Part shown: positions 31,765 to 38,486 of the stretch, piece after piece
How the letters are laid out: each line of letters begins with the position of its first letter
How positions within the stretch are numbered: position 1 is the stretch's first letter
IMG/VR virus record: IMGVR_UViG_2660238683_000009
Span: 1-41,078 of that record
Reading direction: 5' to 3' (one strand)
DNA: 41,078 bases
Origin: a virus
Lineage: Duplodnaviria; Heunggongvirae; Uroviricota; Caudoviricetes
The notes under the pieces: generated by a model
What the model was told of the DNA's origin: nothing
The model's database searches: none
The model's input: only the letters and a program-made list of their open reading frames with translations
Program-made: the position numbers and the translations under genes

Positions 31765-32469
31765 ATGGAAAACAAAGATATTCGCAAATCGAATCTGGCG
31801 TTTTTGCTAGATGAGCATAAAAAAATCGCGGGTAACACTAATGCAAGCTTTGCCGATAAGCTTGGGGTTAGCCCTTCTCAACTCACGCAAGTCTCCGGTG
31901 AAAAAAGCACTCGAAACATAGGGGATAAACTAGCAAGAAAATTTGAAGCCGCACTTGGGTTACCTAATGGGTGGCTTGATTTGGTACATGATGTAACACC
32001 AATTGCATCATGCTCAGATTCTTTAACTTTTGTCGGTCAGGTAAGAAAAGGGTTAGTGCGCGTGGTTGGTGAGGCAATTCTTGGTGTTGATGGTGCCATC
32101 GAAATGACCGAAGAGCGCGATGGGTGGCTCAAAATTTATAGCGATGATCCAGATGCCTTTGGCCTTCGTGTGAAAGGAGACAGCATGTGGCCTAGAATAA
32201 AATCAGGAGAATATGTACTCATTGAGCCTAACACCAAAGTATTCCCGGGTGATGAGGTGTTTGTCAGAACCGTTGAAGGACACAACATGATTAAGGTTCT
32301 TGGCTATGACAGAGATGGAGAATACCAATTTACAAGCATCAACCAAGACCACAGGCCAATAACGTTGCCTTATCATCAAGTAGCAAAGGTGGAGTATGTG
32401 GCTGGTATTCTGAAGCAATCTCGCCATCTGGATGACATCGAGGCAAGGGAGTGGCTGAAAAGTTCGTGA
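31765..32469 (+). CDS. cI: CI-type repressor (HTH + LexA-like S24 peptidase domain)
   Basis: 234 aa; N-terminal HTH (FADKLGVSPSQLTQV); C-terminal autocleavage domain with GDSM serine motif. Confidence 0.8.
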   Translation: MENKDIRKSNLAFLLDEHKKIAGNTNASFADKLGVSPSQLTQVSGEKSTRNIGDKLARKFEAALGLPNGWLDLVHDVTPIASCSDSLTFVGQVRKGLVRVVGEAILGVDGAIEMTEERDGWLKIYSDDPDAFGLRVKGDSMWPRIKSGEYVLIEPNTKVFPGDEVFVRTVEGHNMIKVLGYDRDGEYQFTSINQDHRPITLPYHQVAKVEYVAGILKQSRHLDDIEAREWLKSS

Positions 32470-32545: not shown

Positions 32546-33592
32546 ATGTCAGCGATTGATCAACCTGCGCAATATGTTATCAAGTCAGAAGACGACTTTG
32601 TATCTTTTGTAACGGAAATGCTCGGAAGGAAGGATATCGACTCAAGCGACTTCACATTCCCTAACGTAGTTTTCAGTGGATGGCCAAAGATCAATATTAA
32701 TGTAAAAGGCGATCCAAATAGATATAATTCTTCATTGACTGCGTCAATGCTTTTTGGTATGGCAGAGCTTACGCATGAAATACAAAAAGCATTTACGGTA
32801 GTCAGTCACAGCACTCATAATCGGCAGAAGCTAAAAGATGCAGAGAAAGGTTTGCTGGATATTGTCTACCGAATAAGCGAAGGCTCAAGCCAAGCGGATG
32901 GTGACTCAGATCCGATTGTAAACGGAGTGGTGACAGTGTTTACTCAAGCGATAGGCAAAATGACAGGAAGGCAAGCACTATGCGCCGTCGCCGCTATCGT
33001 CTTAGCTGCCAGCACGGTAGGCTATAAGTGGATCAGTGAGTACTACGAAACACAGCGACATGACCAAGATTCTCAGGTGCAATTGGTGGAAAAAAGCACC
33101 AAAGCGGTAAACGAAGCACAAGACAATGTGCTCAAGTTGTTGATTAGCGGTCAAACAAACATTAGCAGAGAGGTTCTGGCTCACGGCGAGGATGGTAAAA
33201 GCAAGTTGCTTAAAAAGCTTGCTCAAGACTCGTCAGTTGAGAGGGTAACAATTGGTCAGAGAGTGGTAAATAGAGAACAGTTGAATACCTTAAACCAAAG
33301 ACAATCAATTGATCGAAAAAAGGAAACTAGAAGAGATAACTTTTATGTCACGGGCGTTCGTCGCTCGGGAGAAACAAATCAGGACATAAATATTGACGTC
33401 ATAAGGGTTTCAAATGGTGAATCTTTCACCATAAAAACCTCAGCCGACATAACATCTACTGATGAGCTTCTTGAGTTTTTGAATGCTGTAGCCAAAGAAT
33501 CAACTGTTGAAATTTCATACCTAGAGGTTGTAGAAAATGGGCACATTTCAACAGGGCAATTGATAAATATATTCCCCAGCGAACCAGAGTGA
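32546..33592 (+). CDS. Hypothetical protein with one predicted TM helix, immediately downstream of cI (rexAB-equivalent slot)
   Basis: 348-aa ORF with AAGGA RBS; single central hydrophobic helix (ALCAVAAIVLAASTVGY); AT-rich; followed by strong terminator. No family recognised. Confidence 0.6.
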   Translation: MSAIDQPAQYVIKSEDDFVSFVTEMLGRKDIDSSDFTFPNVVFSGWPKININVKGDPNRYNSSLTASMLFGMAELTHEIQKAFTVVSHSTHNRQKLKDAEKGLLDIVYRISEGSSQADGDSDPIVNGVVTVFTQAIGKMTGRQALCAVAAIVLAASTVGYKWISEYYETQRHDQDSQVQLVEKSTKAVNEAQDNVLKLLISGQTNISREVLAHGEDGKSKLLKKLAQDSSVERVTIGQRVVNREQLNTLNQRQSIDRKKETRRDNFYVTGVRRSGETNQDINIDVIRVSNGESFTIKTSADITSTDELLEFLNAVAKESTVEISYLEVVENGHISTGQLINIFPSEPE

Positions 33593-33603
33593 TGCACTCC
33601 AAA

Positions 33604-33629
33604 CCCGGCCACCGAGCCGGGTTTTTTTT
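33604..33629 (+). terminator. Intrinsic terminator ending the cI operon
   Basis: CCCGGC-CACCGA-GCCGGG hairpin followed by TTTTTTTT, 12 nt after the stop of the 348-aa gene. Confidence 0.65.
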
Positions 33630-33791
33630 GCCTCTCGATCCCCCACCTAAAAAACATAACTCATTGTATTTATTGAAAAACTGATTGATACAACTTGCTA
33701 AACCACGCAATCCAGATCTCCCTCAAATCTCTTTATTTATCCTGTCGAATTCCTACAACAAAATAAAACACCATAAGAATCAATACGATAT

Positions 33792-33848
33792 TTGAAAATC
33801 AAAAGAATTTATCATTTTGCTATTGCCATTAATTTATCATTCCGATAA
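33792..33848. promoter_or_regulatory. OL/PL-like operator region upstream of N
   Basis: Same motifs as the cro-cI region: TTGAAAATCAA (33792..33802), AATTTATCATT (33806..33816) and TTATC-N5-GATAA (33834..33848). Confidence 0.4.
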
Positions 33849-34195
33849 AGTTTTCCCATCAGCAGGACGCACTACTCACCAGGGCGGTGAATATACAACG
33901 ATTCGAATATGAATCTACGGCGCTGACAAAGCGCAATAACCAAAGTGAACTTTGGGGTGTGGTGAAGCCAGCTAGTCACTGGCAAGTGCTTACCTACTGT
34001 TGAGCGGTGAAGCGCTCCCAACGCTAGCAATAGCGTGGACGAGATGGGGAGCCGCGGGCGATAAGGCCGCCATAACGCGCACGTTGTCGCATGGAAAAAT
34101 CACTGGGGTGCCGGTTATACCCCTCCGAATGAGACTCAACAAGCTGGAGCTAGACTACCAGCCACCACACCACCAAAGTTCATCAGGAGGTCTAT

Positions 34196-34579
34196 ATGAC
34201 ACGCAGAACTCAGTTCAAAGGCAATTCACGTTCTCGTCGTCGTGAGCGTTTAAAGGCAAAGGCATTAGCTAACGGCGTACTGGCCCGCGAAGAAGCAATA
34301 AGTTCAGAAGTATTACACCGCCCTACTCTAAGCAGAGCGCAGATTCAGGCTAAAGGTACTCACGAAACGCCTGAGCGCATAGAAGACGCTAAGCCAATTA
34401 AGTTCATGGCACAGGACGTGATCTGGCAACAGAAAGAATACAGACGCAATCTGGAGAGAGCGGCCATTGTGTACGCGAATGAGTTTGGACATAAGCAACC
34501 AGAAACTGGTGTATGTCTTCCAAATGTAGCTCTTTACGCGGCAGGCTATCGGAAATCAAAACAACTGACAGCAAGGTGA
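34196..34579 (+). CDS. N: N-like transcription antitermination protein
   Basis: 127 aa; N-terminal arginine-rich motif (NSRSRRRERLKAKALANG) like the lambda N boxB-binding ARM; first gene of the early-left operon. Confidence 0.5.
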   Translation: MTRRTQFKGNSRSRRRERLKAKALANGVLAREEAISSEVLHRPTLSRAQIQAKGTHETPERIEDAKPIKFMAQDVIWQQKEYRRNLERAAIVYANEFGHKQPETGVCLPNVALYAAGYRKSKQLTAR

Positions 34580-34640
34580 CTTGTGTTGGTCGCCAGAAAA
34601 TAAAATTAGGCAGCAAACCACTTATTTGAGAGGAATTAAT

Positions 34641-35264
34641 ATGTCATCAATCCGCTTAACTACGAGAATGAAAGAGAAAATCGCTCGTAACGCTTTAATT
34701 AAGTCTGGGGTTTTCACTGAACTTGAAGAAGTAACAAAGTTAAAGAACCAGCTTGCACTTGACGCCAGAGTTATTGCGTTTGGCGGTAAAAAGAAAACTG
34801 AGGAAGTGGATCAGTTATCATCCAGGTTAGTAGCTATAAGTGAAGAACTTGAAAAGATGGGATGTTCATTTTACTCATACGATGTTCGTTCTACTTCAAT
34901 TTATCTGACTGTATCTGGCAGAAGGGTTGGATGGCATTCATATGGGAAAGACGGCAACGGCGAAGATATATTGCTCCCTACTCCAACCAAAGATAAATGC
35001 ATGTTTGATGCAGAACACGAAATAACAAAAAGGTTTGATGAAATCTGCGCATTGCAACAAAAACTTGAAGCCAAGAAAAAGGATATCGAATCAAATGTAT
35101 TGGCTGCTTTGAACTCAGTCACAACAGTTAAGCGACTTATTGAAGTTTGGCCTGAAAGCAAAGAATTGCTACCAAAAGAAGCAGACAAAGCAAGTACAGC
35201 ACTTCCTGCTTTACGGGTAGAAGATTTGAATAAGATGATTGGACTTCCTTCCGAGTCCGCATAG
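34641..35264 (+). CDS. Hypothetical protein (ral/sieB-equivalent slot)
   Basis: 207 aa from Met with GAGAGGA RBS (ORF track starts 34581); no family recognised. Confidence 0.5.
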   Translation: MSSIRLTTRMKEKIARNALIKSGVFTELEEVTKLKNQLALDARVIAFGGKKKTEEVDQLSSRLVAISEELEKMGCSFYSYDVRSTSIYLTVSGRRVGWHSYGKDGNGEDILLPTPTKDKCMFDAEHEITKRFDEICALQQKLEAKKKDIESNVLAALNSVTTVKRLIEVWPESKELLPKEADKASTALPALRVEDLNKMIGLPSESA

Positions 35265-35398
35265 TCGGCCTTTATTTTTGGCACTAACAACAGAATAAAC
35301 ACTGCACTGTGTATTCATTCCAACGAGTGAATACACGGAGCAATGTCGCTCGTAACTAAACAGGAGCCGACTTGTTCTGATTATTGGAAATCTTCTTT

Positions 35399-35424
35399 GC
35401 CCTCCAATGTGAGGGCAATTTTTT
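35399..35424 (+). terminator. Intrinsic terminator (tL-like) within early-left operon
   Basis: GCCCTC-CAATGT-GAGGGC hairpin followed by AATTTTTT. Confidence 0.5.
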
Positions 35425-35436
35425 GACGGAGGATAT

Positions 35437-36405
35437 ATGAGTGAAGTAACAGATTTAGTTGTTATTGAAAAAGCAAATGCAATGACTGTATTTCAGTCTG
35501 CCGACCAGATTGAAGAAATCCTTCAAAAGGTTGAACGTGAAGTTATGTCCTTTGTGCCTGATATCACAACGGCAAAGGGCAGAAAGGAGATCGCTTCTCT
35601 GGCGTATAAAGTTGCGCAGACGAAAACATATCTCGATGGTCTTGGCAAAGACCTTGTTGCTGAACTGAAGGAAATTCCAAAGCTAATTGATGCTAACCGC
35701 AAGACAGTGCGTGATCGCCTTGATGAGCTGAAATCCAAGGCACGCCAGCCTCTTACTGATTATGAGGAGGAACAGGCGCGGATTAAAGCCGAAGAAGAAG
35801 CTAAGGCAGCAGCTGAAGCTCTCGCAAAGCAAATTGAGTCTGACCATGAAATAGCGATTTTGATGGATCGCGAATTTGACCGCCAAAGAGAAGAGGCAAG
35901 ACTCAAAGCGGAGCAGGAAAAGCGAGAGCATGAAGAACGCTTAAAAAGAGAAGCTGAAGAGAAAGCCAGAGCAGAAGCCGAAGCAAAGGCAAAAGCCGAA
36001 ATTGAAGCAGCAGCAAGGCGAGAAGCAGAAGCTAAGGCCGCAGCGGAACGTGCAGAGCGTGAACGCATTGAAGCCGAGCAACGAGCACAGCGCGAAGCAA
36101 AAGAGGCAGCAGAACGAGCTGAAAGAGAAAAGCAGGCGGCAATTGAAGCAGAACGCCGAAAAGCACAGGAGGAGGCTGAACGAATCCGGCGCGAGGCTGA
36201 AGCAAAAGAGCAAGCCAGAATCGCAGAAGAAAAAAGAATCAAGGACGAAGAAGAGCACAGAGCAAAGGATAAAGCTCACCGGAAAGAAGTAAATAACAAA
36301 ATACTTGCTGACCTTATCAAGGTTGGCGCATCAGAAGATGTTGCTAAAAATATCATAACAGCCATCGTAAAAGGCGAAGTATTCGCAACAAAAATAACCT
36401 ACTAA
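35437..36405 (+). CDS. Hypothetical protein with long charged Ala/Glu/Lys/Arg-rich helical repeat (TolA-like low complexity)
   Basis: 322 aa; GGAGG RBS; central ~170 aa of EAKAKAE/AEREA-type repeats flanked by N- and C-terminal globular segments. Confidence 0.5.
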   Translation: MSEVTDLVVIEKANAMTVFQSADQIEEILQKVEREVMSFVPDITTAKGRKEIASLAYKVAQTKTYLDGLGKDLVAELKEIPKLIDANRKTVRDRLDELKSKARQPLTDYEEEQARIKAEEEAKAAAEALAKQIESDHEIAILMDREFDRQREEARLKAEQEKREHEERLKREAEEKARAEAEAKAKAEIEAAARREAEAKAAAERAERERIEAEQRAQREAKEAAERAEREKQAAIEAERRKAQEEAERIRREAEAKEQARIAEEKRIKDEEEHRAKDKAHRKEVNNKILADLIKVGASEDVAKNIITAIVKGEVFATKITY

Positions 36406-36429
36406 TAAAACCAACATAAGGAACCACCC

Positions 36430-36561
36430 ATGATTTACGCAATCGCGGGAGGCGCTCGCATGGGTGCCTTCCAATTAAATGAATCTTTACTTGAACGAAT
36501 CACCCGTAAATTACGTGACGGATGGAAAAGAGTTGAGGTCTTATTATGCGCAATGAAATAG
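36430..36561 (+). CDS. cIII: CIII-like protease (FtsH) inhibitor
   Basis: 43 aa; core ESLLERITRKLRDGWKR matches lambda CIII as recalled. Confidence 0.7.
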   Translation: MIYAIAGGARMGAFQLNESLLERITRKLRDGWKRVEVLLCAMK

Positions 36562-36698
36562 CCATCAATCACCAGATGCTTCGTGCTGCACAGAACAAAG
36601 CAGTAATAGCCAGATTTATTGGTGATTCAAAAATGTGGCTTGAAGCAAATAAAGCGATGAAATCAGCTATCAACCTTCCGTGGTATCGCAGGAAATGA
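36546..36698 (+). CDS. kil: Kil-like host cell-division inhibitor
   Basis: 50 aa; IARFIGDSKMW resembles lambda Kil IATFIGDEKMF; overlaps cIII stop as in lambda. Confidence 0.55.
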   Translation: MRNEIAINHQMLRAAQNKAVIARFIGDSKMWLEANKAMKSAINLPWYRRK

Positions 36699-36952: not shown

Positions 36953-37660
36953 ATGGATTTGAATAAATTCGATGAGCCATTCAGCCCTGAAGATATCGAA
37001 TGGCGAATACAGCAAAGCGGTAAAACACGCGATGGCAAAGTGTGGGCTATGGTGCTGGCTTATGTCACGAACCGGGCAATCATGAAACGCCTGGACGATG
37101 TTTGCGGCAAAGCAGGATGGCGCAATGAATACCGCGATATTCCCAACAACGGAGGCGTTGAATGCGGCATATCAATCAGGATTGATTCCGAATGGGTAAC
37201 CAAATGGGATGCTGCTGAAAACACGCAGGTAGAAGCCGTCAAAGGTGGTCGTTCCGGTGCAATGAAGCGCGCTGCCGTTCAGTGGGGAATCGGTCGGTAT
37301 CTGTATAACCTTGAGGAAGGTTTTGCACAAACATCTCTCGATAAAAAGCAGGGATGGCACAGGGCAAAACTCAAGGATGGAACAGGATTTTACTGGCTCC
37401 CTCCATCGCTGCCGGGATGGGCAATCCCAGCATCAGATAACAAACCATCACCAGAAAATACCAACCAGAAATCTCCATCGGTTGACTGCGAACAAATCCT
37501 GAAAGACTTCAGCGATTATGCGTCAACAGAAACTGACAAGAAAAAACTCATCGAGCGTTATCAGCGTGACTGGCAATTAATGGCTGGAAACGAGGAGGCG
37601 CAGGCTAAATGCGTTCAGGTAATGAACATCAGAGTTAACGAGCTAAAACAGGCGGCATAA
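36953..37660 (+). CDS. Single-strand annealing protein (Rad52-like family)
   Basis: 235 aa immediately upstream of ssb in the recombination slot; N-terminal region resembles Rad52/22-type annealases as recalled. Confidence 0.5.
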   Translation: MDLNKFDEPFSPEDIEWRIQQSGKTRDGKVWAMVLAYVTNRAIMKRLDDVCGKAGWRNEYRDIPNNGGVECGISIRIDSEWVTKWDAAENTQVEAVKGGRSGAMKRAAVQWGIGRYLYNLEEGFAQTSLDKKQGWHRAKLKDGTGFYWLPPSLPGWAIPASDNKPSPENTNQKSPSVDCEQILKDFSDYASTETDKKKLIERYQRDWQLMAGNEEAQAKCVQVMNIRVNELKQAA

Positions 37661-38176
37661 ATGGCAAGCAGAGGCGTAAATAAGGTGATCATTATTGGTC
37701 GCCTTGGGCATGATCCAGAAATCAGATATTCACCATCAGGAACGGCATTTGCAAACCTTACAGTTGCTACGTCAGAACAATGGCGTGATAAGCAAACTGG
37801 AGAGCAAAAGGAGCAGACGGAGTGGCACCGCGTGGTAATGAGCGGGAAACTGGCAGAAATTGCCAGCGAATATCTGCGAAAAGGCTCTGAGGTTTATCTT
37901 GAAGGCAAATTGCGGACAAGAAAATGGCAGGATCAAAGCGGACAGGATCGGTTCACTACTGAAGTCATCGTGGGCGTTGGTGGAACTATGCAAATGCTTG
38001 GTGGCAAGCAAGGAGGCAATGAACAGTCTTCACCTCAGCGAAATAACGGTCAGCAACAAAGACAGCAACCTCAGCAGCAGGGGAATCATAGCGAACCACC
38101 TATGGATTTTGACGACGATATACCCTTTGCACCAGTAACTCTCCCCTTCCCTCGTCACGCTATTCACGCAATTTAA
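37661..38176 (+). CDS. ssb: Single-stranded DNA-binding protein with 15-aa extension beyond DDDIPF
   Basis: OB-fold signature ([18 protein letters not shown]), Gly/Gln-rich linker and DFDDDIPF motif, followed by [15 protein letters not shown] before the stop. Confidence 0.85.
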
Positions 38177-38189
38177 TCAGGAGAAAATC

Positions 38190-38486
38190 ATGCCAGCGCC
38201 TCTGTATGGTGCGGATGACGTGCGCCGCTGTTCCGGCAATTCCGTATCGGAGGTGCTGGATAAATTCAGAAAAAACTACGACCGGATAATGTCGCTACCG
38301 CAGGAAACGAAAGAGGAAAAGGAATTTCGCCACTGCATATGGCTTGCAGAGAAAGAAGAGCGCGAGCGAATTTACCAGACATCAATCCGACCATTCCGCA
38401 AAGCCACATATACCCACTTCCCTGAATATATCGACCCGCGCCTGCGTAATTACCGCTCACGCTATGGCGCTATCAGTAATGACTGA
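38190..38486 (+). CDS. Hypothetical protein
   Basis: 98-aa ORF with GGAG RBS directly after ssb. Confidence 0.4.

What the first reader, a model, noticed from the sequence alone, without database searches (positions are those of the whole stretch)
34641..36405. Two unrecognised genes between N and cIII (ral/sieB-equivalent slot), one with a ~170-aa charged helical repeat
In lambda the N-to-cIII interval carries accessory genes such as ral and sieB. Here it holds a 207-aa protein (34641..35264) and a 322-aa protein (35437..36405) separated by a terminator and a perfect inverted repeat. The second protein has a long Ala/Glu/Lys/Arg-rich repeat (EAKAKAE/AEREAK-like, reminiscent of TolA domain II) between short terminal domains, and the DNA shows matching tandem repetition. 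Neither matches a family I can name. Both are early-left genes expressed on infection or induction, so candidate roles include anti-restriction, host takeover or exclusion.
Basis: partly seen in the sequence, partly recalled or inferred. Interest (0 to 1): 0.5.

Follow-up and report, generated by a model that had tools for sequence, protein, structure and literature searches.

The report
Nmad5 and recombination-linked helical phage genes
Both genes are real and common in lambdoid prophages: the first belongs to the named but biochemically uncharacterised Nmad5 family, and the second, usually mislabelled "TolA", is a long charged-helix protein that in many bacteria sits directly in front of phage recombination genes, which hints at an untested role in recombination.

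Summary
Two well-formed genes (34641-35264, 207 aa; 35437-36405, 322 aa) lie between N and cIII. A 9-bp perfect inverted repeat and an intrinsic terminator separate them.

- Gene 1 does match a named family: it is a full-length Pfam Nmad5 protein (E=3e-71). Here it is a solitary cargo gene in the variable N-to-tL2 slot, where Sf6 carries ral. No nucleotide-modification partner genes are nearby, and its model shows no enzyme-like fold.
- Gene 2 is Sf6 gp33, which PGAP labels "TolA". It has no transmembrane anchor and no TolA domain III.
- Its architecture is a conserved ~115-aa N-domain, a ~175-aa Glu/Ala/Arg/Lys helix without heptad periodicity (single-alpha-helix type), and a conserved ~40-aa C-domain.
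- The family is very large (5,658 clusters at 50% identity).

New here: across alpha-, beta- and gamma-proteobacterial prophages, gene 2 lies directly upstream of a single-strand-annealing protein (Erf, RecT or Sak4), then an exonuclease and SSB. That is lambda gam's position. Nearly identical copies precede unrelated annealing proteins.

Best reading: an untested accessory of the recombination module that does not depend on annealase type. Both genes are already catalogued. Interest is moderate.

The parts
34196..34579 (+). N-type antiterminator gene. It marks the left boundary of the variable slot.
   Evidence: Pfam PF25694 N_peptide, E=9.8e-16; phrog_271.
34641..35264 (+). Gene 1: a 207-aa Nmad5-family protein, present here as a solitary early cargo gene.
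35309..35336 (+). Inverted repeat / RNA hairpin: 9-bp perfect arms, or a 12-bp stem with one G.U pair and loop CAAC.
   Evidence: It lies within the region homologous to the Sf6 'bsq4 boundary sequence'.
35397..35424 (+). Intrinsic terminator (tL2-like) immediately upstream of gene 2.
   Evidence: 8-bp stem with 5 G-C pairs, followed by TTTTTT. The homologous Sf6 site is annotated tL2A.
35437..35781 (+). Gene 2, N-terminal conserved domain (aa 1-115), containing the motif PDxTTAKGRKEIAS...K...GKDL...ID..R..VR.
   Evidence: Invariant columns. The profile finds 5,658 clusters at 50% identity. phrog_17211 and phrog_1376.
35782..36306 (+). Gene 2, Glu/Ala/Arg/Lys-rich helix (aa ~116-290) of variable length.
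   Evidence: Predicted helices 46-172 and 182-295. Over aa ~150-285: 50-68% charged, 4-7% large hydrophobic residues, no heptad periodicity. All indels fall here.
36307..36405 (+). Gene 2, conserved C-terminal mini-domain (aa ~291-322), ending in ...I.Y, plus the stop codon.
   Evidence: The C-terminal 45 aa are conserved in most full-length homologues among the 84 diverse loci (consensus D+xH+xxINxxAxxALxxxGlsEExAKxxvxxIAkGxIPxvxIxY).
36430..36698 (+). cIII and kil. These lambdoid-specific genes sit between gene 2 and the annealing-protein gene.
   Evidence: PF02061, E=4e-15; PF06301, E=1.7e-20.
36953..37660 (+). Rad52/Erf-superfamily single-strand annealing protein, 548 bp downstream of gene 2.
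   Evidence: PF04098, E=7e-26; phrog_1097 Erf-like.
37661..38176 (+). SSB gene of the recombination module.
   Evidence: ORF ending in ...DDDIPF. The homologous gene is annotated ssb.
38190..38486 (+). Abc2-type anti-RecBCD gene.
   Evidence: PF11043, E=6e-61.

Best explanation
The interval holds two independent, already catalogued early-left genes.

Gene 1 (34641-35264) is a stand-alone Nmad5-family protein. It sits as interchangeable cargo in the variable slot between N and the tL2-type terminator, the slot that holds ral in Sf6. In this setting it most likely acts as a binding or adaptor protein on a host or nucleic-acid target, not as a DNA-modification enzyme. That last step is inference.

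Gene 2 (35437-36405) is read through the terminator under N antitermination (inferred). It encodes an elongated, soluble, all-helical protein with three parts: a conserved N-terminal domain, a roughly 26-nm Glu/Arg/Lys/Ala single-alpha-helix-type spacer of variable length, and a conserved C-terminal mini-domain.

Gene 2 is the conserved leading gene of temperate-phage recombination modules in Proteobacteria. The usual order is gene 2, annealing protein (Erf, RecT or Sak4), exonuclease, SSB. In enteric lambdoid phages, cIII and kil are inserted behind it. The same gene 2 allele is found in front of unrelated annealing proteins. It therefore most likely acts on something those proteins share, such as DNA ends or intermediates, or a host factor such as a nuclease or SSB. 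It is unlikely to work through a contact specific to one annealing protein.

Shown here: the gene structures, family memberships, protein architecture and synteny. Inferred: any role in recombination and the mechanism.
For: Gene 1:
- Full-length Pfam Nmad5 match.
- It alternates with ral, gp34 and other small ORFs in the same slot of otherwise ~98% identical phages.
- It is solitary and is the first or an early gene of the leftward operon in Klebsiella, Providencia and Serratia prophages.
- The nearly identical P22-like prophage has no hypermodification genes.

Gene 2, architecture:
- The three-part layout is conserved across alpha-, beta- and gamma-Proteobacteria.
- No Pfam, NCBIfam or PADLOC family and no PDB relative by sequence or fold.

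Gene 2, synteny:
- Phages D3, JBD44, phiLM21, Vibrio 1.132.O and Ab31 have it next to Erf or Bet-like genes plus an exonuclease.
- Of 74 one-per-species loci with enough downstream DNA, 54 have Erf, RecT, a YqaJ nuclease or DUF3799 within 1.5 kb downstream. In 30 the gene is within 60 bp. Upstream the figure is 11 of 65.
- Two further loci have Sak4/AAA_24 downstream.
- Of 74 close relatives, 59 have Erf, 8 have RecT, and 4 of the remaining 7 have a Walker-A protein that looks Sak4-like.
- Upstream neighbours are highly variable (58 clusters in 76 loci). Downstream neighbours are much less so (largest cluster 28 of 80).
- Gene 2 proteins 93-95% identical precede non-homologous Erf versus RecT genes.

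Parallels:
- In Firmicutes phages the same slot holds Mu-Gam-like, DUF2483, DUF1351 or Gp157 genes, which those authors proposed to be functionally analogous (PMC8093625).
- A 34-column motif is shared with DUF1351: hhalign score 25.1 against a shuffled mean of 12.0 and maximum of 19.7.
Against: - No experiment bears on either protein in this context.
- Synteny is not function. In the window itself cIII, kil and a 57-aa ORF separate gene 2 from the annealing-protein gene.
- About a quarter of the diverse loci show no recognised recombination gene within 1.5 kb downstream.
- The Ab31 BAS operon and the HK620 Sak4+SSB pair work in recombineering without this gene, so it is not essential for annealing.
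- A 2025 survey of lambdoid Rec modules did not list it among Rec-module functions.
- It co-occurs with Abc2 in 45 of 65 close relatives, which argues against a simple replacement for an anti-RecBCD function.
- The DUF1351 link has only 9% hhalign probability.
- For gene 1, M6-like phages do carry Nmad5 inside a thymidine-hypermodification cassette, so an enzymatic or enzyme-associated role is not excluded.
Confidence: 0.5

Rival explanations
1. Gene 2 is specifically a Gam-like factor. On this reading it protects linear DNA ends or inhibits host RecBCD/AddAB-type nucleases, and so fills the 'gamma' position of a gam-bet-exo-like operon.
For: - It sits in the same position as lambda gam, immediately upstream of the annealing protein and exonuclease genes.
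- 68 of 71 diverse loci with gene 2 lack any recognisable Gam or Abc2.
- The Ab31 BAS operon was described as lacking a RecBCD inhibitor, yet orf39, a gene 2 homologue, lies 8 bp upstream of it and was not tested.
- Mu-Gam-like genes occupy the same slot in Firmicutes phages.
- Independence from annealase type fits a host-directed function.
Against: - No sequence or fold similarity to lambda Gam, Mu Gam or Abc2.
- The helix is nearly charge-neutral (net -6 over 175 aa), so it is not an obvious DNA mimic.
- It co-occurs with Abc2 in most enteric relatives, including this window.
Confidence: 0.18
2. The link to recombination genes is positional only. Gene 2 would then have an unrelated early function, such as control of replication or the cell cycle together with cIII/kil, nucleoid or transcription modulation, or anti-defence. 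The first reader's anti-restriction, exclusion and host-takeover ideas belong here.
For: - Early-left operons are syntenic in general.
- In enteric phages gene 2 is inherited as one block with cIII-kil.
- A mosaic junction lies exactly between gene 2 and the annealing-protein gene.
- About 25% of diverse loci have no recognised recombinase nearby; some have Dam or C5 methylases downstream instead.
Against: - Direct adjacency (8-12 bp, same strand) recurs in alpha-, beta- and gamma-Proteobacteria with three unrelated annealing-protein families, while the upstream neighbours vary freely.
- No PADLOC hit.
- cIII and kil are absent from the non-enteric loci that keep the adjacency.
Confidence: 0.25
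3. Gene 2 is a TolA-like cell-envelope protein, as public annotation says.
For: PGAP and several phage records call it 'cell envelope biogenesis protein TolA'. Its Ala/Glu/Lys/Arg-rich helix resembles TolA domain II in composition.
Against: - No hydrophobic segment (maximum Kyte-Doolittle 19-residue mean 1.03).
- No TolA Pfam domain.
- The conserved terminal domains are unrelated to TolA.
- The gene sits in a recombination-gene context.
Confidence: 0.02
4. Gene 1 (Nmad5) takes part in covalent modification of phage DNA or nucleotides, as the family name implies.
For: In M6/SN1-like phages Nmad5 sits in the thymidine-hypermodification cassette. A Dhillonvirus nmad5 point mutation escapes the Tmn defence.
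Against: - The gene is solitary here and in other prophages.
- Its model has no catalytic fold and no PDB relative.
- Most conserved residues look structural rather than catalytic.
- Deleting nmad5 in Dhillonvirus did not give escape from Tmn.
Confidence: 0.1

Closest known systems
Pfam PF18757 Nmad5 (nucleotide modification associated domain 5): Dhillonvirus nmad5, Pseudomonas phage M6/SN1 Nmad5
   Same: Gene 1 matches the whole model (E=3e-71). It shares the conserved C-terminal core ...LNSVTTxK(R)LIEVWPExKE...LPAL.V.DLN..IGLP with the Dhillonvirus Ioannina and M6 proteins. K216 of the Ioannina protein aligns with the near-invariant K164 here. If phiSMA8 shares that numbering, its Tmn-escape change K216E falls at this residue; I did not have the phiSMA8 sequence.
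   Different: The gene is solitary and lies early in the leftward operon of a lambdoid prophage. It is not inside a base-hypermodification cassette (M6) or among head genes (Dhillonvirus). It is shorter (207 aa, versus 253 aa in Ioannina and at least 296 aa in phiSMS22, judged from its K296E position). No biochemical activity is known for any family member.
Pfam PF07083 DUF1351, with Sipho_Gp157 and DUF2483: genes upstream of erf, sak4 or recT in Firmicutes phages
   Same: Same genomic slot, directly upstream of the annealing-protein and SSB genes (PMC8093625). All are mainly helical proteins of about 250-350 aa of unknown function. A 34-column motif, K.L.AE..K....D..R..V+...+.P..E, aligns gene 2 residues 70-110 with DUF1351 residues 47-80 above shuffled and reversed controls.
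   Different: Neither the window protein nor 10 family representatives hit the Pfam DUF1351 model (E cut-off 0.1 for the window protein, 0.01 for the representatives). hhalign probability is only 9%. The C-terminal domains differ. In L141, gene 2 and a Gp157-domain protein occur side by side, so they are not simple equivalents.
Lambda Gam / Mu Gam / P22 Abc2 (control of host nucleases in phage recombination modules)
   Same: Position: lambda gam lies immediately upstream of bet and exo, as gene 2 does in D3, phiLM21 and Ab31. Like those proteins, gene 2 appears independent of annealase type.
   Different: No sequence or fold similarity. Gene 2 coexists with Abc2 in this window. No nuclease-inhibition data exist.
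TolA domain II and ER/K single alpha-helices (myosin VI/X, caldesmon-type spacers)
   Same: A long Glu/Lys/Arg/Ala-rich helix with few hydrophobic residues, many i to i+4 opposite-charge pairs, and variable length.
   Different: Only the composition and physical character are shared. There is no transmembrane anchor and no TolA C-terminal domain. The conserved terminal domains define a separate family.
Lambda ral / sieB slot
   Same: Gene 1 lies between N and the tL2-type terminator, where Sf6, Sf101 and HK544 carry ral.
   Different: Neither protein is homologous to Ral or SieB (no Pfam or PHROG match). Gene 2 lies beyond the terminator and is not a variable cassette.

Membership tests
Nmad5 (PF18757) | Full-length match to the family HMM above the gathering score | tested here: met
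   240 bits against a cut-off of 27; residues 4-203 on model positions 1-206 of 206.
Nmad5 (PF18757) | Genomic association with nucleotide- or base-modification genes, which is the basis of the family name | tested here: not met
   No such genes flank it here, in the near-identical prophage, or in Klebsiella, Providencia or Serratia prophages. The association is present in M6/SN1.
Nmad5 (PF18757) | Nucleotide-modifying activity | not testable with these tools
TolA | N-terminal transmembrane anchor (domain I) | tested here: not met
   Maximum 19-residue Kyte-Doolittle mean is 1.03, and it falls at residue 293.
TolA | C-terminal globular domain III (TolA_C) | tested here: not met
   No Pfam hit at E<=0.1.
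TolA | Long Ala/Lys/Glu-rich helical domain II | tested here: met
   Composition and predicted helices. This is a compositional resemblance only.
Classical coiled coil | Heptad (3.5-residue) periodicity of hydrophobic residues | tested here: not met
   Spectral power at 3.5 is 0.02-0.04 for residues 116-295, with only 4-7% large hydrophobic residues over aa ~150-285.
ER/K-type single alpha-helix | High density of E/K/R with i to i+4 opposite charges and few hydrophobic residues, in a predicted helix | tested here: met
   50-68% charged residues; charge-pair scores 5.5-13 per 28 residues; helices 46-172 and 182-295. Monomeric helicity itself needs CD or SAXS.
DUF1351 (PF07083) | Match to the family HMM | tested here: not met
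   No hit for the window protein or for 10 family representatives. The positive control LG62 protein hits at 2e-18.
DUF1351 (PF07083) | Profile-profile similarity | tested here: inconclusive
   hhalign P=0.0037, probability 9%, 34 columns. Score 25.1 against shuffled mean 12.0, sd 2.1, maximum 19.7 (n=150) and reversed 12.0. The DUF1351 profile was built from only 4 sequences.
DUF1351 (PF07083) | Position directly upstream of the phage annealing-protein and SSB genes | tested here: met
   for gene 2; PMC8093625 for DUF1351.
Lambda Gam / Abc2 anti-RecBCD proteins | Sequence or fold homology | tested here: not met
   No Pfam Gam or Abc2 hit on gene 2. No fold match.
Lambda Gam / Abc2 anti-RecBCD proteins | Inhibition or modulation of RecBCD | not testable with these tools
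   Needs in vivo or in vitro assays.
Ral / SieB | Sequence homology | tested here: not met
   No Pfam or PHROG match to ral or sieB for either protein. Ral is a separate gene in Sf6.

The most novel reading that the evidence does not exclude
The gene 2 family (Sf6 gp33, D3 Orf53, Ab31 orf39; thousands of clusters) may be a missing fourth component of Proteobacterial phage recombination modules. It would be a cofactor that works regardless of annealase type and occupies lambda gam's position. It would protect or deliver DNA ends, or disarm a host nuclease, by a mechanism and fold unlike Gam, Abc2 or Mu Gam. It may also be the Gram-negative counterpart of DUF1351. If so, adding it should improve recombineering systems such as Pseudomonas BAS, which are believed to lack a native RecBCD inhibitor.
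Probability: 0.2. Interest if true: 0.7.

Novelty: already known. Interest (0 to 1): 0.38.

Why it matters
As sequence features, both genes are ordinary. Alleles 95-99% identical occur in 509 (gene 2 N-domain) and 211 (gene 1) of 5,426 complete E. coli genomes, and in long-known phages such as Sf6, mEp234 and HK633.

Three things are worth keeping.
1. The widespread "TolA" label on gene 2 is a compositional artefact and should not be propagated.
2. Gene 2 belongs to one of the larger uncharacterised phage protein families. Its strict placement in front of Erf, RecT and Sak4 recombinases across three proteobacterial classes gives a concrete, cheap hypothesis to test. The test is directly relevant to recombineering tools such as the Ab31 BAS operon, where the homologue sits 8 bp upstream and was left out.
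3. Nmad5 in lambdoid prophages has no modification partner genes. The family name may therefore mislead, and the protein may be better studied as an early effector or as a trigger of defences such as Tmn.

Tried and rejected
Searches that found nothing for either protein:
- NCBIfam and PADLOC gave no meaningful hits.
- PDB sequence searches with single sequences and with profiles found nothing.

Fold searches:
- Foldseek of the gene 2 model against BFVD found only its own family.
- Foldseek of the gene 2 model against the PDB gave a best E of 2.
- The afdb50 library was unavailable.

Other sequence-level checks:
- Rfam on 33400-36600 found nothing credible.
- No sigma-70-like promoter was found in the spacer.
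- Pfam on 10 diverse gene 2 representatives found no domain.

Literature:
- Searches for a TolA-like lambdoid protein, Gp157 with Sak4, and TolA with Erf found no study of gene 2.
- The 2025 lambdoid Rec-module survey does not mention it.

Readings rejected:
- TolA: no anchor and no domain III.
- Classical coiled coil: no heptad periodicity.
- A helical hairpin with conserved register: near-identical alleles carry one-sided deletions of 13-47 aa after the low-confidence break at residues 173-181.
- A partner specific to one annealing protein: 93-95% identical gene 2 proteins sit next to Erf in one locus and RecT in another.
- Functional linkage between gene 1 and gene 2: Nmad5 is present upstream of gene 2 in only 10 of 74 close relatives, and it occurs without gene 2 in Klebsiella prophages.
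Full report
**Setting.** The + strand of this part of the window is the lambda-type leftward early operon. The order is:
- a LexA/cI-type repressor gene (31765-32469);
- a 348-aa gene of unknown function in the rex position (32546-33592) and its terminator (33601-33624);
- N (34196-34579, PF25694);
- the two genes of the finding;
- cIII (36430-36561) and kil (36546-36698);
- a Rad52/Erf-type annealing protein (36953-37660);
- SSB (37661-38176);
- an Abc2 anti-RecBCD gene (38190-38486).

A nearly identical arrangement is annotated in a P22-like prophage of E. coli EC17GD31.

**Observation check.** Both ORFs exist as described, and both have good Shine-Dalgarno sequences. The 172-bp spacer contains:
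- a 9-bp perfect inverted repeat (35309-35317 and 35328-35336), which as RNA forms a 12-bp stem with one G.U pair;
- an intrinsic terminator (stem 35397-35418 plus T6), homologous to the site Sf6 annotates as tL2A.

The spacer RNA is far more structured than shuffled versions (z = -5.7). It matches no Rfam family, and no promoter-like site lies in it. Gene 2 is therefore probably expressed by N-dependent read-through; this is an inference.

The charged stretch is real: residues 116-290 are E 27%, A 25%, R 15% and K 11%. The DNA-level "tandem repetition" is only weak and degenerate.

**Gene 1.** The 207-aa protein is a complete Pfam Nmad5 domain (E=3.3e-71), and PGAP names it so.
- *Conservation.* The most conserved part is the C-terminal third...LNSVTTxKRLIEVWPESKEL.P......LPAL.V.DLNKMIGLP.
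- *Literature.* One relevant experimental paper was found in the searched library. In Dhillonvirus, a single Lys-to-Glu change in nmad5 escapes the Tmn defence. Deleting the gene does not give escape, and the gene could not be cloned (PMC11846954).
- *Mapping the escape mutation.* In my alignment with the Dhillonvirus Ioannina protein, K216 aligns with the near-invariant K164 of the window protein. This is an inference, because I did not have the phiSMA8 sequence itself.
- *Context elsewhere.* In M6/SN1-like phages Nmad5 sits in the thymidine-hypermodification cassette (PMC9476957).
- *Context here.* The gene is solitary here and in Klebsiella, Providencia and Serratia prophages. There it is the first or an early gene after the repressor.
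- *Slot.* In otherwise ~98% identical phages the same slot holds ral plus gp34 (Sf6), an 83-aa ORF (mEp234), or additional small ORFs/DUF2528 alongside Nmad5. Gene 1 is thus interchangeable cargo in the ral slot.

Its biochemical role is unknown. I favour a binding or adaptor role over catalysis, with low confidence.

**Gene 2: what it is not.** It is Sf6 gp33 ("similar to D3 Orf53"). PGAP and several phage records label it "cell envelope biogenesis protein TolA".
- It has no hydrophobic segment.
- It has no TolA domain or any other Pfam, NCBIfam or PADLOC family.
- It has no PDB relative by sequence or fold.

The TolA label reflects composition only.

**Gene 2: architecture.** The AF2 model (pLDDT 82, pTM 0.30) is all-helical: short helices at 12-38, then helices 46-172 and 182-295, then a small C-terminal helix.
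- Residues ~150-285 are 50-68% charged with 4-7% large hydrophobic residues. They show no 3.5-residue periodicity. This fits an ER/K single-alpha-helix type of spacer, not a classical coiled coil.
- Close relatives range from 245 to 333 aa, and every indel falls inside this helix. In IMG/VR relatives 322 aa is the commonest length.
- More distant members with very short linkers still keep both ends.
- The N-domain motif (PDxTTAKGRKEIAS...K...GK...ID..R..VR...R.PL) and the C-terminal 40-45 aa (ending ...I.Y) are conserved across alpha-, beta- and gamma-Proteobacteria.
- An N-domain profile finds 5,658 clusters at 50% identity, of which 1,399 have E<=1e-30. Ten representatives have no Pfam domain.

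**Gene 2: context, the main new result.**
- *Distant phages.* In Pseudomonas phages D3, JBD44 and Ab31, Sinorhizobium phiLM21 and a Vibrio phage, the homologue lies next to an Erf- or Bet-like annealing protein. An exonuclease and often SSB follow.
- *One genome per species.* I fetched 80 loci, one per species, and classified neighbours with profiles built from these loci and checked against Pfam. Of 74 loci with at least 1.5 kb downstream:
  - 54 have Erf, RecT, a YqaJ-type nuclease or a DUF3799 nuclease within 1.5 kb downstream;
  - 44 have an annealing protein;
  - 30 have the recombination gene within 60 bp.
  
  Upstream, 11 of 65 loci have such a gene. Two further loci have Sak4/AAA_24 downstream.
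- *Close relatives.* Among 74 close relatives, 59 have Erf, 8 have RecT, and 4 of the remaining 7 have a Walker-A protein that looks Sak4-like.
- *Neighbour variability.* Immediate upstream neighbours fall into 58 clusters in 76 loci. Downstream neighbours include one cluster of 28 out of 80.
- *Swapped partners.* Gene 2 proteins that are 93-95% identical precede non-homologous annealing proteins: Erf versus RecT in L122/L123 and in L100/L098.

The gene is therefore anchored in front of the recombinase, whichever recombinase family is present. In enteric lambdoid phages, cIII, kil and small ORFs are inserted between the two.

**Comparison with what is known.**
- For Firmicutes phages, a published survey noted that the gene upstream of erf or sak4 encodes a Mu-Gam homologue, DUF2483, DUF1351 or Gp157, and proposed that these are analogous (PMC8093625).
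- In lambda the gene upstream of bet and exo is gam.
- The Ab31 "BAS" recombineering operon (orf38-36) was described as lacking a RecBCD inhibitor (PMC6438905). Its untested upstream neighbour orf39, 8 bp away, is a gene 2 homologue.
- A 2025 survey of lambdoid Rec modules does not mention this gene.
- A profile-profile comparison of the gene 2 N-domain with four DUF1351 proteins gives a 34-column match: P=0.0037, score 25.1, against a shuffled mean of 12.0 and maximum of 19.7 in 150 trials, and 12.0 for the reversed alignment. The hhalign probability is only 9%. This hints at remote homology and does not establish it.

**Mechanism.**
- *Shown:* the protein architecture and the synteny.
- *Inferred:* gene 2 acts with the recombination module on something common to Erf, RecT and Sak4 systems, such as DNA ends, recombination intermediates or a host factor. 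The charged helix would serve as a length-tolerant spacer between two binding domains.

The specific Gam-like reading (end protection or nuclease control) fits the position and the absence of Gam or Abc2 in 68 of 71 diverse loci. Several points weaken it:
- gene 2 coexists with Abc2 in 45 of 65 enteric relatives and in this window;
- the helix is nearly charge-neutral;
- nothing resembles Gam in sequence or fold.

BAS and HK620 Sak4+SSB work without this gene, so it is at most an accessory. The alternative that the synteny is merely positional cannot be excluded.

**Verdict.**
- Both genes are already catalogued and common, and their functions are unknown.
- The useful outputs are the correction of the TolA label, the caution about the Nmad5 name in this context, and a testable link between a very large uncharacterised family and phage recombination modules.

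Noticed in passing
window 32546-33592 (+), terminator 33601-33624: A 348-aa gene lies between the cI-type repressor gene and the PL/N region, which is the rexAB position. It probably shares the repressor transcript. It has no Pfam, NCBIfam or PADLOC hit and matches only phrog_6191 (unknown function). One central hydrophobic segment (Kyte-Doolittle 19-residue mean 1.72 near residue 145) suggests a membrane helix. It is a candidate lysogen-expressed exclusion or defence gene.
   Followed up: partly
L002 4920-5525 (phage mEp234, PV340539.1): The CDS annotated 'Bet' begins MSKEFYARLAAIQENLNAPKNQYNSFGKYKYRSCEDILEG, which from memory resembles the start of P22 Erf. It grouped with the Erf seeds in my profile. 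The 'Bet' label appears to be a misannotation.
   Followed up: partly
window 35262-35436: The 175-nt spacer RNA before gene 2 is unusually structured (MFE -60.6 kcal/mol, z = -5.7). It has a strong non-terminator hairpin upstream of the terminator. The first mosaic breakpoint shared by many phages (matches starting at window ~35257) lies just before it, inside what Sf6 calls boundary sequence bsq4.
   Followed up: partly
L141 7451-8386; L162 7054-8025; L152 2287-2967: In some alpha- and gammaproteobacterial prophages the gene 2 homologue is followed by a protein with a Sipho_Gp157 domain or by an AAA_24 (Sak4-type) protein. The Firmicutes-type Gp157/Sak4 pairing therefore also occurs next to this family.
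   Followed up: partly
L107 7076-7654, L116 7094-7672, L108 8314-10068 (Aeromonas/Pseudaeromonas prophages): In these loci gene 2 homologues are followed by Dam-type or C5 DNA methyltransferase genes, not by a recognised recombinase. L103, L104 and L108 have an unidentified 346-409-aa protein immediately downstream.
   Followed up: no
Stx2a-converting phage records (hits H154-H158): The Nmad5 match in Stx2a phages starts only at residue 34, and each record has two matching places. This suggests truncated or duplicated copies in that lineage.
   Followed up: no
L175 5001-8427 (Providencia prophage): Here Nmad5 is followed by a 44-aa ORF, a 259-aa protein with no Pfam hit, then DUF2800 (a PD-(D/E)XK nuclease family) and an Enc34/Gp2.5-like ssDNA-binding protein. 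In this lineage Nmad5 itself therefore sits at the head of a recombination/replication module.
   Followed up: no
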